The translations under genes and the position numbers were made by a program. This document shows positions 56,181 to 59,118 of a DNA stretch of 64,000 nt, piece after piece (position 1 is the first letter of the stretch; each line of letters begins with the position of its first letter). Origin of the DNA: a virus; IMG/VR virus record IMGVR_UViG_3300031949_000013, positions 1 through 64,000 of that record; one strand, written 5' to 3'. The notes under the pieces were generated by a model, which was not told where the DNA came from, made no database searches, and saw only the letters and a list, made by a program, of their open reading frames with translations.

Positions 56181-56437
56181 CAGGGAAATCCTCGCCAGGT
56201 AGCAAGAGACAGCATCGCTTCATGGGTTGTACCCTCAGTCTCCAAAGCACTGCTGTAGACCACTTGAAGTGCGGTCACGATAAAACTACTGGCGAGACTG
56301 CCACGGATACAGTAATCCAACACCTCCAAAATCTCGATAGCCCAGGGAGGGTCTGACCACTTCTCAATAAGAGGCTTCAGCGACACATCGAGTTGCGTCG
56401 TAGAGGACCCCAAGAGAAGATCACGGAGTTCGTTCAT
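56180..56437 (-). CDS. Hypothetical protein
   Basis: 85-aa ORF coupled by overlaps on both sides. Confidence 0.55.
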   Translation of the reverse strand: MNELRDLLLGSSTTQLDVSLKPLIEKWSDPPWAIEILEVLDYCIRGSLASSFIVTALQVVYSSALETEGTTHEAMLSLATWRGFP

Positions 56438-57216
56438 TCCTCAACCATTCTGAGGAAGTCTTCTTCGGAGAGGCACACCGTTCCGTTCTTGCGAGCTGCA
56501 ACAGCTTTCGAGCTGGTGGAGTTGGGGTCGGCGATCACGAGGTACGAGAGTCCTTTACCGACGGATCCTTTCACTCCACCGCCGGCCGCCACAACCATTG
56601 CCTCCAAGTCACCTCGCTTCCGGACCATGCTCCCAGTGAAGCAGAAGGACTTCCCGGTGAGTGAACCTACGATCACGTCCTTGATCCGGACCCCCAGACC
56701 ATGAAGCTCCTTGACCTGGCCGGCGTGATGCTGAAGCCAATTGGCCAGCGTCCGGGACTTCACCGGGCCGAGACCCGGAACCTTGCTCAGGGCAACGGCG
56801 TCGAGATTGCTCAACTTGGCCCAGGAATCATGGCCAGCATCCATGACCATCCGGATCGTTGAGGCTGCACAGCCTGGAATCGACAAGGCGCCCAGAAGGC
56901 TCTCCATCGGGATGGGGTTCTTAGCCCAGAGAATCTTGAGCAACTTGTCGGCCACGTGATCAGAAATTCGGTCCACTTCAGCCAGGGCCGGGATGGTAAG
57001 CTTGTAGAGATCGGGAACGGCCTTCACCTTACCCGAGGTGACCAGCTTTTCGATGAGAACTTCGCCCCATTCCTTGATGTCCAGGGACTTGATGTACCGC
57101 TCGATGCGTCCGACCGCCTGAGCAGAGCAATCAGCCGTGTTCGGGCAGATGAGGTACTCACCCTCCATCTCGGTCTCGGAGCCACAGACGGGGCACTGAG
57201 GGGGCGGGATCACCAT
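56434..57216 (-). CDS. ligA: NAD+-dependent DNA ligase, C-terminal fragment (Zn finger, HhH, BRCT)
   Basis: CPVCG..CPN..CSAQ, LSIPG, VPGLG, FCFTGS, SVGK, SSKAVAA. Confidence 0.88.
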   Translation of the reverse strand: MVIPPPQCPVCGSETEMEGEYLICPNTADCSAQAVGRIERYIKSLDIKEWGEVLIEKLVTSGKVKAVPDLYKLTIPALAEVDRISDHVADKLLKILWAKNPIPMESLLGALSIPGCAASTIRMVMDAGHDSWAKLSNLDAVALSKVPGLGPVKSRTLANWLQHHAGQVKELHGLGVRIKDVIVGSLTGKSFCFTGSMVRKRGDLEAMVVAAGGGVKGSVGKGLSYLVIADPNSTSSKAVAARKNGTVCLSEEDFLRMVEE

Positions 57217-57995
57217 TGGTACACCTGGCCTGTGGGGTAGCAGTCAGGATCGTTTGGATCTACCCAAGGCTTTCCAGGGCCTCTCCAGGGACGAATACCC
57301 ACTTGCATCTCCATGCCCTCCAAAGCTGTGGCATTCACCCAATTGGCATTCCACCCATGCCTATGCACGTAGTCATTGAGGGCATCCCGTTTAGCCGCAA
57401 TCTTGGGCCAGGCCCACTTGAAGTCTGGCTTCACCTCCCAAAGCTCGTGAATGTTGCCGAGGAGGACCACCAGGAAGTCAGGCCAATAGTTTCGTTTCGC
57501 TCCGTCGAACAGGTACGGGATAGAAAGTGGTTCCACCTCGTAACGTAGAACGTGAGGGTGGAGGTCCAATACCTTTGCCACTCGCAGTTCCCACGATGAG
57601 CGCACCCACTGCTCTCCGAGAGACTTTGGGCTCGTTATCCAGCATCCCCGACCTATCCCACGAAGGCGCCCATCCCCCCAAGCACGAGTGACACCTTCGG
57701 AGATTCTACTTCTTACTTCGGGCGTTCGCTCATACTTCCCCGCGACGCCCACACCTTTTCCGGAGCGAGCCGCCGACATCTTCTGTATTGCCTCGGGGGT
57801 ATGACCCACCCCACGAGTAGGATTGTGCTCTTGCATGAAGTTAGACTGCTTCAGTCGCATCTCGTCTGACTTGAGGTGAGCAAGGCCAAAACGGGATTTG
57901 AACTCAGCAGCCGTAGAAAACCCATGTTTGCGGATGTGGTCCGTCGTAATGAACTCAGTGACCACATGGCACACGGGGCAGGTCAACTTAGCCAT
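57210..57995 (-). mobile_element. Free-standing endonuclease (Zn finger, NUMOD3-like repeats, TnsA-like PD-(D/E)XK) inserted in ligase
   Basis: Start MAKLTCPVC (57995) with SD GGAGG; HTPEAIQKMS, RSSWE, YWPDF, EVKP. Confidence 0.8.
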
Positions 57996-59118
57996 TGACC
58001 CTCCCAAGAATCTTGGGGATGACATCACCCCCACGAGCCAGTATGACTTGGCAGCCGATCTCCAGCCGGTGCTTCCGAATAAAAGCCACGTTGTACAATG
58101 AGGCGTGGTCAATAGTTGCGCCAAGGAGATTTACTGGATCTACTACGGCCACTGGAGTAATCCGGCCTGAAGCCCCTACTTGCCACTCCACGGCTCTGAG
58201 AGTGGTAACTCGGGTAATAGGAGCGAACTTGAAGGCTACCGCCCCAAGTGGCCGACCATCCTTCTCCCCGAGGAAAAGTTGGAGATCAAGACGATTGATC
58301 CTGATCACTAGACCATCTATGTCGTAGTCGAGGGAATCTCGGATGCTCTCCTGGTACTGTAGCCAGATCTGAGTGATAGCCGCCACACTGGAGACAGTTC
58401 CGTAGTTCGGGACTTTGAAGCCCTGTGCTTTCAGCCATTCGAACTGAGCAAGCTCAGTACCGTGGCTGTGTGCCGTGGCATGGATCACATCACTCTCCAA
58501 GACGGAGTAGGTGATGACCGACAGGTGCTCCGAGCCTTTTCCGTCGTAGCGTTTGGAGACACCGGCTGCGGTGTTCCTGGTGTTGGCCTTATCAGGGAAG
58601 TGCTTGGCGAAGTCACTCTTGAACAGAACGATCTCCCCTCGGATGGATCCAGAGAAGCCTGGCACCTCCTGAACGAGACCCTTCATCTTCCGGACGTTCG
58701 GAGTGATGTCCTCGCCAACCAACCCGTCCCCACGGGTGAGAGCTTGAACGAACTTCCCCTCCTCATACCGGAGATGGATCGAGATACCATCGAGCTTCTC
58801 GGTCCAGAGCAAATGTTCCCAGGAAGGGTCCGTGACCGGAAGACCCGTCCCCTCTACCCATCGAAGAAGCTCTTCGGGGAGGTTCACCTTGTCCAGGGAA
58901 CCCATTGGCACTCCGTGGCTGACCTTGACCCATTCCGAAACCGCTGAAGCCCCGATAGCCTTGATCTCGGGAGAGTCCGGACGAAGCATTCGCAGCCGAT
59001 CCCGGGAGGCATCATAGACCTCGTCTGGAACCAACGAAATCCCCCGCTCGTAGGCCACTCGCCACTCGGCGAGCTTCACTTCCAGCTCGTCAGCTTCCTC
59101 TTCGTCGAATACAAACAT
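57988..59118 (-). CDS. ligA: NAD+-dependent DNA ligase, N-terminal fragment (adenylation and OB domains)
   Basis: MGSLDK, EKLDG, TRGDG..GEDIT, RNTAAG, DIDGLV, GRITP, GDVIP. Confidence 0.92.
   Translation of the reverse strand: MFVFDEEEADELEVKLAEWRVAYERGISLVPDEVYDASRDRLRMLRPDSPEIKAIGASAVSEWVKVSHGVPMGSLDKVNLPEELLRWVEGTGLPVTDPSWEHLLWTEKLDGISIHLRYEEGKFVQALTRGDGLVGEDITPNVRKMKGLVQEVPGFSGSIRGEIVLFKSDFAKHFPDKANTRNTAAGVSKRYDGKGSEHLSVITYSVLESDVIHATAHSHGTELAQFEWLKAQGFKVPNYGTVSSVAAITQIWLQYQESIRDSLDYDIDGLVIRINRLDLQLFLGEKDGRPLGAVAFKFAPITRVTTLRAVEWQVGASGRITPVAVVDPVNLLGATIDHASLYNVAFIRKHRLEIGCQVILARGGDVIPKILGRVNG

What the first reader, a model, noticed from the sequence alone, without database searches (positions are those of the whole stretch)
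56434..59118. NAD+ DNA ligase split in two by an endonuclease gene with no intron or intein
Seen: the N-fragment stops after ...GDVIPKILGRVNG (end of OB domain). The endonuclease ATG (57995) overlaps that stop, and its own stop overlaps the ATG of the C-fragment MVIPPPQCPVC (Zn finger-HhH-BRCT). There is no non-coding space for a group I/II ribozyme and no intein motif. Both junctions read CAATGG, but joining across that repeat does not restore the frame. The C-fragment has its own AGGTG/GGTGTA just upstream, and both halves look intact. Known: Aeh1 nrdA is split by mobE and assembles from two polypeptides. Inference: a two-chain LigA created by homing endonuclease invasion at a domain boundary.
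Basis: partly seen in the sequence, partly recalled or inferred. Interest (0 to 1): 0.75.

Follow-up and report, generated by a model that had tools for sequence, protein, structure and literature searches.

The report
Phage DNA ligase split by endonuclease
A selfish endonuclease gene has inserted into this uncultivated phage's NAD-dependent DNA ligase gene and cut it into two separately translated halves that very probably still work together, a real and well-documented case of an arrangement already known from phage T5 and its relatives.

Summary
On the minus strand, the LigA adenylation+OB half (57988-59118), a 261-aa endonuclease (57210-57995) and the LigA Zn-HhH-BRCT half (56434-57216) follow each other. 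Their stop and start codons overlap (ATGGCTAA, ATGGTGA). No intron or intein signal was found.

- **Empty site:** a syntenic relative (L002) has the uninterrupted gene.
- **Direction of the event:** an outgroup allele shows that the intact state is ancestral.
- **Co-conversion:** the last 76 codons of the window's N-half are foreign. They are 38-76% identical to L002 but 88-96% identical to the N-half of another endonuclease-bearing allele. This is a co-conversion tract.
- **Selection:** both halves are under strong purifying selection (dN/dS 0.07 and 0.04).
- **Site specificity:** this Zn-finger plus TnsA-like PD-(D/E)xK family sits at the same ligA site in every full-length member with readable context, with both halves intact in all 18 complete loci.
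- **Decay:** one "intact" relative carries a 22-aa endonuclease scar as its linker.

Two-chain NAD+ ligases are already known. T5-like phages have ligA/ligB, and PDB 9HU3/9I5I is the pair from phage PR1, split at the same boundary. This scan has also reported such loci on other DNA many times. It is a new member of a known kind.

The parts
57988..59118 (-). LigA N-fragment ('subunit A'), 376 aa: domain Ia, adenylation (KxDG, K108) and OB fold
   Evidence: Pfam PF01653 E 3e-40 and PF03120 E 2e-22. It aligns to E. coli LigA residues 49-389 of 4glx/2owo. Y23, D32, D36, K108, D110, G111, R129, E162, R181, R190, R260, D268 and K297 are conserved in at least 95% of 23 alleles. dN/dS against L002 is 0.074 for codons 1-300.
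57991..58218 (-). Co-conversion tract: the last 76 codons of the N-fragment (end of the OB domain), of foreign origin
   Evidence: Against L002, nucleotide identity is 0.72/0.63/0.51, compared with about 0.87 elsewhere. dS is 1.5 against 0.63, and GC3 is 0.54 against 0.68-0.73 in the flanks. Amino-acid identity is 96/96/88% to P0173, the N-fragment of another endonuclease-bearing allele, but only 52-84% over codons 1-300. The outgroup intact allele P0053 matches L002's tract (75%) and not the window's (55%).
57210..57995 (-). Free-standing homing endonuclease, 261 aa: C2H2 zinc finger, NUMOD3-like GKGxGxxGKYxRT segment, and a TnsA/T4 gp4-like PD-(D/E)xK nuclease
   Evidence: Pfam PF08722 scores 35 bits, over its cut-off. 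In 26 homologues C6, C9, H20, E155, P172, D173, E187 and K189 are invariant, and H24 is conserved in at least 90%. The profile hits TnsA (E 3.5e-4) and T7 endonuclease I. The AF2 model has pLDDT 86, and the top Foldseek hits are TnsA 1t0f/1f1z (E 2.6e-6). The start at 57995 agrees with the N-termini of the closest homologues.
56434..57216 (-). LigA C-fragment ('subunit B'), 260 aa: Cys4 zinc finger, HhH, BRCT
   Evidence: Pfam BRCT, HHH_5 and DNA_ligase_ZBD. It aligns to T. filiformis LigA 403-660 and to 9hu3_B 'DNA ligase subunit B' 6-233. C8, C11, C24 and C30 are conserved in all alleles. dN/dS against L002 is 0.040.
58000..58004 (-). SD-like GGAGG, 4 nt upstream of the endonuclease ATG, inside the N-fragment's last codons
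57222..57226 (-). SD-like AGGTG, 5 nt upstream of the C-fragment ATG, inside the endonuclease's last codons
57208..58070 (-). 863 nt with no DNA-level counterpart in the insertion-free relative, where 101 nt (L002 7007-7107) stand instead
   Evidence: blastn: window 61799-58071 = L002 3273-7006 (88.5%); window 57207-53900 = L002 7108-10415 (86.8%).

Best explanation
A free-standing homing endonuclease gene invaded the phage's NAD+-dependent DNA ligase gene in the linker between the OB fold and the zinc finger. The endonuclease has a zinc finger plus a TnsA-like PD-(D/E)xK nuclease. It arrived by double-strand-break repair from an endonuclease-bearing donor allele, and about 76 codons of the donor's OB-domain end came with it (co-conversion).

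The result is a compact three-gene unit, ligase N-half / endonuclease / ligase C-half, with overlapping stop and start codons and internal SD sequences. It is probably transcribed as one mRNA and translated by coupling.

Nothing rejoins the ligase at the RNA or protein level. The adenylation+OB chain and the Zn-HhH-BRCT chain assemble non-covalently, as in the T5/PR1-type LigA/LigB enzyme, and seal nicks together. The endonuclease presumably cuts uninterrupted ligA alleles of co-infecting relatives and so spreads the cassette.

Shown here: the anatomy, the empty site, the direction of the event, the co-conversion tract and its donor lineage, site specificity of the family, and purifying selection on both halves. 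Inferred: cleavage activity and target, heterodimer formation, and ligase activity.
For: - **Anatomy and domains:**
- **Empty site:** the syntenic relative L002 has one 640-aa ligA between the same ribonucleotide reductase and RecD-like helicase genes.
- **Polarity:** the outgroup intact allele P0053 is 75% identical to L002's tract and 55% to the window's, yet 76-77% to both C-parts.
- **Mosaic:** WIN-L002 identity is 0.80-1.00 over codons 1-300, then 0.76/0.64/0.38. WIN-P0173 is 0.52-0.84, then 0.96/0.96/0.88. Going by matching contig lengths (4,419 nt), P0173 appears to lie on the contig that also holds the closest endonuclease (P0002, 80%) and a C-half (P0054, 74%).
- **Composition and divergence of the tract:** dS 1.5 against 0.63, and a GC3 dip in the tract and the endonuclease.
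- **Selection:** dN/dS 0.074 (N) and 0.040 (C).
- **Site specificity:** every full-length family member with enough flanking DNA lies between a ligA N-half and C-half in the same order. This holds for L007-L022 among viral contigs and L030-L051 and L054 among metagenome contigs. In all 18 distinct complete loci the three frames are open, and the catalytic, NMN-binding and Zn residues are conserved.
- **No splicing element:** no Rfam match and no Hint domain. The same Pfam search does find a split intein in the ligA of locus L012, a positive control.
- **Precedent for function:** PDB 9HU3/9I5I hold the LigA and 'subunit B' chains of Providencia phage PR1, broken at the same boundary.
- **Stand-alone C-halves:** 242 clusters in the 143-455 aa range match the C-half, most of them about 260-280 aa stand-alone proteins and some of them contig-end pieces of full-length genes.
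Against: - No biochemical or expression data exist for this phage.
- Part of the WIN-L002 divergence used for dN/dS may predate the insertion.
- The contig is a fragment (94 kb, CheckV estimate 20% complete). A second ligase elsewhere in the genome cannot be excluded. None is on the contig.
The crossover is therefore mapped at protein level only.
- One distant family member (L052, 34% identity, 1.5-kb contig) is not followed by a recognisable ligase half.
- The endonuclease tree roughly follows the ligase tree. Much of its history may be vertical rather than active homing.
Confidence: 0.85

Rival explanations
1. The insertion killed the ligase. The two halves are decaying remnants and the phage relies on the host's LigA or on another phage ligase.
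For: The contig is only part of the genome, so another ligase could exist. Some phages lack a ligase altogether (PMC7824862).
Against: dN/dS is 0.074 and 0.040 at dS of about 0.65. Both frames are intact in all 18 distinct split loci, which are only 35-50% identical to one another, and every catalytic and Zn residue is kept. The same break gives a structurally solved two-chain enzyme in phage PR1.
Confidence: 0.04
2. A hidden rejoining mechanism restores a single-chain ligase: a group I/II intron, a split intein, or translational bypass or frameshifting.
For: Introns and inteins are the usual homes of homing endonucleases. In locus L012 the same gene does carry a split intein further upstream.
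Against: Coding sequence is continuous, with overlapping stop and start codons and no non-coding space. There is no Rfam match and no Hint or intein domain. The N- and C-halves aligned to the intact L002 protein leave no extra 100-aa or 35-aa intein pieces; only the 12-residue linker differs. A 780-nt bypass has no precedent.
Confidence: 0.03
3. The nuclease is no longer (only) selfish. It has been recruited as a working partner of the ligase, for example a nick- or end-processing nuclease co-translated with it, and is kept for that reason.
For: It is associated with ligA in all but one distant member, across deep divergence. Translational coupling at both junctions is tight in many lineages. 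Its catalytic residues are invariant. Its tree roughly tracks the ligase tree.
Against: Close relatives differ by presence or absence of the gene, with a co-conversion footprint. Intact alleles without it are common. In P0175 it has been deleted down to a 22-aa scar while the ligase stays whole. All of this fits a mobile element that comes and goes.
Confidence: 0.08

Closest known systems
T5-type two-subunit NAD+-dependent DNA ligase (ligA/ligB of Demerecviridae; Providencia phage PR1 pair solved as PDB 9HU3/9I5I)
   Same: The same enzyme is broken at the same place. Chain A ends 2 residues after the position matching the end of the window's N-half (query 374 = chain 337 of 339). Chain B starts at the position matching the window's C-half start (query 5 = chain 6). 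Both are annotated as subunits A and B in T5, Sugarland and Athena.
   Different: In T5, Sugarland and PR1 the gap holds no endonuclease gene; it holds about 200 nt with a terminator and promoter. Here an intact nuclease gene fills the gap with overlapping codons. Ligase identity is only about 30-35%. Whether the two breaks share one origin was not tested.
Aeromonas phage Aeh1 nrdA-a / mobE / nrdA-b 'genes in pieces' (Friedrich et al. 2007, PMID 17395719, cited in PMC3326045)
   Same: A free-standing homing endonuclease gene without an intron or intein splits an essential DNA-metabolism gene, and the two polypeptides are thought to reassemble.
   Different: A different enzyme (ribonucleotide reductase) and a different nuclease family (MobE is HNH-type, from my own knowledge). 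Function of the pieces has been shown for Aeh1 and not here.
TnsA of Tn7 and T4 gp4 head-completion nuclease (PD-(D/E)xK, Pfam PF08722)
   Same: The nuclease domain matches PF08722 over its cut-off. TnsA is the top fold match. The E...PD...ExK residues are invariant. PHROG 'head closure' families match residues 131-222.
   Different: No transposase partners lie next to it. It carries an N-terminal C2H2 zinc finger and a NUMOD3-like segment, and it behaves as a site-specific mobile gene inside ligA.
'Fractured genes': split inteins with a free-standing endonuclease between the halves (Dassa et al. 2009, from my own knowledge, not retrieved)
   Same: A gene in two pieces with an endonuclease gene in between. 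Locus L012 shows exactly this in the same ligase, at the KLDG active site.
   Different: The window's break has no intein halves, so no protein trans-splicing is possible.

Membership tests
NAD+-dependent DNA ligase (LigA) | Adenylation domain with the KxDG lysine and the NMN-binding domain Ia residues | tested here: met
   PF01653 E 3e-40. K108, D110 and G111, and Y23, D32 and D36, are conserved in at least 95% of 23 alleles.
NAD+-dependent DNA ligase (LigA) | OB fold, Cys4 zinc finger, HhH and BRCT domains | tested here: met
   PF03120, PF03119, PF14520 and PF00533. C8, C11, C24 and C30 are conserved. Aligns to 1dgs and 2owo.
NAD+-dependent DNA ligase (LigA) | All domains on one polypeptide | tested here: not met
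   Two ORFs separated by a 786-nt gene in another frame.
T5/PR1-type two-subunit LigA/LigB | Break between the OB fold and the zinc finger, with each half a separate gene | tested here: met
   Ends align to within a few residues of the termini of 9hu3 chains A and B. 9hu3 is the PR1 pair.
T5/PR1-type two-subunit LigA/LigB | The two chains form an active heterodimer | not testable with these tools
   No multimer prediction or assay is available. Inferred from purifying selection and from both chains being deposited together in 9HU3/9I5I.
T5/PR1-type two-subunit LigA/LigB | Common descent of the break with the Demerecviridae break | not tested
   Ligase identity is about 30-35%. No joint tree was built.
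Free-standing homing endonuclease | Presence/absence polymorphism at one site among close relatives | tested here: met
   Window against L002: 863 nt replace 101 nt, with flanks 87-88% identical.
Free-standing homing endonuclease | Co-conversion of flanking host sequence from the donor | tested here: met
   76-codon tract.
Free-standing homing endonuclease | Intact nuclease active site | tested here: met
   E155, D173, E187 and K189 are invariant in 26 homologues, including the window's. TnsA-like fold.
Free-standing homing endonuclease | Site-specific cleavage of the empty allele | not testable with these tools
   Needs an enzyme assay on the L002-type site.
Group I/II intron or intein | Ribozyme core, or Hint splicing blocks, flanking the endonuclease | tested here: not met
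   Rfam gives only a 21.7-bit noise hit. There is no Hint or intein domain, while the same search finds Hint in L012.
Tn7-like transposon (TnsA) | TnsA together with TnsB/TnsC partners and transposon ends | tested here: not met
   The nuclease gene abuts the ligase halves on both sides with overlapping codons.

The most novel reading that the evidence does not exclude
The mobile unit may be a portable 'split-allele cassette' rather than the endonuclease alone. It would comprise the last ~76 codons of the OB domain, with a tail suited to life as a free C-terminus and a cleavage-resistant target, plus the endonuclease and the translational coupling signals for the downstream half. It would convert intact ligases into two-subunit ligases wherever it lands. 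The nuclease might also have acquired a role alongside the ligase.
Probability: 0.12. Interest if true: 0.6.

Novelty: new member of a known kind. Interest (0 to 1): 0.4.

Why it matters
The locus shows most stages of a homing endonuclease's life cycle in one essential gene, from natural sequences alone:

- the empty site (L002, P0053);
- a fresh invasion with a traceable co-conversion tract (this window);
- long-term residence with both ligase halves kept (18 lineages, many on 300-620 kb contigs);
- decay to an in-frame 22-residue scar that re-fuses the enzyme (P0175).

It gives a plausible origin for the endonuclease-free two-subunit ligases of T5-like phages. It also points to the OB|Zn linker of LigA as a place where the enzyme tolerates being cut or extended, which is useful for protein engineering of split ligases.

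It adds an apparently undescribed ligA-specific family (zinc finger plus TnsA-like nuclease) to the homing endonucleases. I found no paper on it in the library. It does not change how ligases or homing endonucleases are understood.

Tried and rejected
- **DNA search in cultured phages:** blastn of the whole locus against 50,697 phage records found nothing. No cultured phage has a full-length member of the endonuclease family; only the nuclease domain matches gp4-like head-completion proteins.
I could not fetch the contigs that encode P0002/P0173/P0054 or P0175. The search for related loci for P0175 and P0174 in viral contigs also found nothing. The crossover and the deletion junctions are therefore known only at protein level.
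- **CAATGG repeat as a target-site duplication or recombination scar:** rejected. Half of it is the ATG, joining across it does not restore the frame, and other loci lack it at the second junction.
- **Intron, intein or bypass:** rejected.
- **Internal promoters or terminators:** none above the shuffled expectation.
- **Loss in L002 rather than gain in the window:** rejected by the outgroup P0053 and by the GC3 dip in the window's tract.
- **Literature:** no paper on a split NAD+ ligase structure or on TnsA-like homing endonucleases was found in the library. Only T5 ligA/ligB annotations turned up.
- **Athena phage gap:** the two ORFs in the Athena (T5-like) gap have no recognisable endonuclease domain.
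Full report
**What is there**

The window is the first 64 kb of a 94-kb IMG/VR virus record, with a CheckV completeness estimate of 20%. On the minus strand three ORFs abut:

- a 376-aa protein (57988-59118);
- a 261-aa protein (ATG at 57995, stop at 57210);
- a 260-aa protein (56434-57216).

The first stop and the second start overlap as ATGGCTAA. The second stop and the third start overlap as ATGGTGA.

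Pfam assigns the NAD-ligase adenylation and OB domains to the first protein. It assigns the ligase zinc finger, HhH and BRCT to the third, and a TnsA-like endonuclease domain (over its cut-off) plus a weak NUMOD3 to the middle one.

Against solved structures, the first protein covers E. coli LigA 49-389 and the third covers T. filiformis LigA 403-660. Together they make one complete LigA, broken in the linker between the OB fold and the zinc finger.

GGAGG lies 4 nt before the endonuclease ATG and AGGTG lies 5 nt before the C-half ATG. Both are as good as or better than the median for 40 other genes of the window. No promoter-like or terminator-like site exceeds the shuffled expectation, so one coupled transcript is likely. 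The contig holds no ATP-dependent ligase and no second LigA, but it is a fragment.

**No splicing**

- There is no non-coding space.
- Rfam gives only a 21.7-bit noise hit.
- There is no Hint or intein domain.
- Aligned to the intact protein of a relative, the two halves account for everything. Only the roughly 12-residue linker is replaced by ...GRVNG* and MVI....
- As a positive control, the same Pfam search finds a Hint module and an intein C-block in the ligase of locus L012. There a separate, upstream break at the KLDG active site is a split intein with a DUF559/Vsr-like ORF between the halves.

**The empty site and the direction of the event**

L002 (IMGVR_UViG_3300044849_000004) is syntenic. 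It has the ribonucleotide reductase gene upstream and the RecD-like helicase gene downstream, and a single 640-aa ligA.

blastn aligns window 61799-58071 to L002 3273-7006 (88.5%) and window 57207-53900 to L002 7108-10415 (86.8%). In between, 863 nt in the window replace 101 nt in L002.

Identity is not uniform:

| Measure (window vs L002) | Body of the gene | Last 75 codons of the N-half | After the endonuclease |
|---|---|---|---|
| Nucleotide identity | about 0.87 | 0.72, 0.63, 0.51 | 0.83-0.92 |
| dS | 0.63-0.66 | 1.5 | – |
| GC3 in the window | 0.68 (N), 0.73 (C) | 0.54 (0.61 in the endonuclease) | – |

An outgroup intact allele (P0053) is 76-77% identical to the C-parts of both. In the tract it is 75% identical to L002 and only 55% to the window. 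L002 therefore keeps the native sequence, and the window's tract is the foreign one.

A search with the tract alone found its source lineage. P0173 is a 378-aa N-half. By matching contig lengths (4,419 nt) it appears to sit on the contig that also holds the closest endonuclease (P0002, 80%) and a C-half (P0054, 74%).

In bins of 25-50 residues:

- window-P0173 identity is 0.52-0.84 up to residue 300, then 0.96/0.96/0.88;
- window-L002 identity is 0.80-1.00 up to residue 300, then 0.76/0.64/0.38.

This is a recombination mosaic with a crossover near codon 300. It is the co-conversion expected when a homing endonuclease gene is copied from a donor together with adjacent exon sequence.

**The endonuclease family**

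The protein database holds 51 clusters of this family. An alignment of 26 members (A1) shows:

- an invariant CxxC...H, with the second His conserved in at least 90% (a zinc finger, faintly Ros/MucR-like);
- a GKGxGxxGKYxRT segment;
- E155 / P172-D173 / E187-x-K189, a PD-(D/E)xK site.

The profile hits TnsA and T7 endonuclease I. The AF2 model (pLDDT 86) has TnsA as its top fold match, with E 2.6e-6. The nuclease domain also matches T4 gp4-type head-completion nucleases.

In IMG/VR and JGI metagenome contigs, every full-length member with enough flanking DNA lies between a ligA N-half and C-half, in the same order and orientation. Many of these contigs are 300-620 kb.

In 18 distinct complete loci, all three frames are open. 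The N-half ends 5-15 residues after the DVIP motif, and the C-half starts 5-20 residues before the first zinc cysteine. The junctions are overlapping or nearly so.

The ligase halves of these loci are only 30-50% identical to the window's. They still keep the NMN-binding, KxDG, motif III-V and Cys4 residues.

One distant relative on a 1.5-kb contig (L052) has no ligase half downstream.

The endonuclease tree roughly follows the ligase tree: the window groups with L010 and L019 in both. Intact alleles are nested among split ones. The history therefore mixes vertical descent with gains and losses.

**Loss with a scar**

P0175 is a 652-aa "intact" ligase seen on six contigs. It reads ...GDVIPKILGRI-VAKVLDLHPHVLQYDVEPFSIP-SQCPVCGF... 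at the junction. The 22 middle residues equal residues 139-160 of the window's endonuclease (19/22, E 1e-9).

Its N- and C-parts are 90% and 88% identical to a split pair (P0174, P0055). So the endonuclease can be whittled down in frame until the two halves are one protein again. This shows both that the element is dispensable and that the linker tolerates foreign peptide.

**Function of the halves**

dN/dS between the window and L002 is 0.074 for N codons 1-300 and 0.040 for the C-half, at dS of about 0.65. Part of that divergence may predate the insertion. The deep conservation across split lineages does not have that weakness.

From established knowledge of LigA, the adenylation+OB part can self-adenylate but needs the Zn/HhH part to bind and seal nicks. 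The C-half must therefore act in trans.

**What is already known**

- PDB 9HU3/9I5I hold a 339-aa 'DNA ligase (NAD+)' chain and a 248-aa 'DNA ligase subunit B' chain.
- I identified these as the pair from Providencia phage PR1: 757 and 528 bits over the full length.
- Their termini match the window's break to within a few residues.
- Endonuclease-split genes without an intron or intein are known from Aeh1 nrdA/mobE (cited in PMC3326045) and from nrdD of Felix O1-like phages (PMC4837284).
- 242 clusters in the 143-455 aa range match the C-half. Most are stand-alone C-halves of about 260-280 aa; some are contig-end pieces of full-length genes.

This scan has also reported split NAD ligases with resident endonucleases many times on other DNA. 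One earlier follow-up describes a TnsA-like nuclease exclusive to the split allele in a 536-kb phage, the same length as the contig of my locus L020.

**Verdict**

The thing itself is a new member of a known kind. Its value lies in how cleanly the invasion, its donor lineage and the later decay can be read from sequence.

Noticed in passing
protein P0175 (residues 375-396); no locus available: A full-length 652-aa LigA, seen on six contigs, carries 22 residues of the endonuclease (equal to window endonuclease residues 139-160, 19/22 identical) as its OB-Zn linker. This is an in-frame deletion scar that re-fused a once-split ligase. Its sister split pair is P0174 + P0055 (90% and 88% identical).
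   Followed up: partly
L012:826-3382: In this 73-kb viral contig the ligase N-half is broken again at the KLDG active site by a split intein. There is a Hint module after ...EKLDGFS|C and ...VLAHN|C at the start of the next ORF. A 314-aa DUF559/Vsr-like ORF lies between the halves. With the TnsA-like endonuclease further down, the ligase is encoded in three pieces.
   Followed up: partly
L020:2235-4664: In a 536-kb contig, extra genes are nested in the ligase gap. A 335-aa ORF with a DGQHR motif (no Pfam hit) lies between the N-half and the endonuclease, and a 134-aa ORF lies between the endonuclease and the C-half.
   Followed up: no
Bacillus phage SP-15, KT624200.1 26536-27183 (hit H41): A distant relative of the endonuclease (25% identity over residues 1-190, zinc finger included) lies under features annotated 'major capsid protein | putative endonuclease'. 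This may be the same kind of element in a capsid gene.
   Followed up: no
L052:1-576: A 34%-identical relative of the endonuclease on a 1.5-kb contig is followed by an unrelated 205-aa ORF, not a ligase C-half. It is the one possible exception to the ligA-only rule.
   Followed up: partly
L029:3957-4849 (Vibrio phage Athena, T5-like): Two ORFs (112 and 186 aa) sit between ligase subunits A and B. They have no recognisable endonuclease domain and are possibly remnants of an earlier resident.
   Followed up: partly
window 57623-57637 and 58016-58030 (minus strand): The peptide PK(I/S)LG occurs both in the ligase OB tail (DVIPKILG) and inside the endonuclease (SPKSLG here, SPKILG in P0002). This may be chance, or a short homology that helps deletions.
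   Followed up: no
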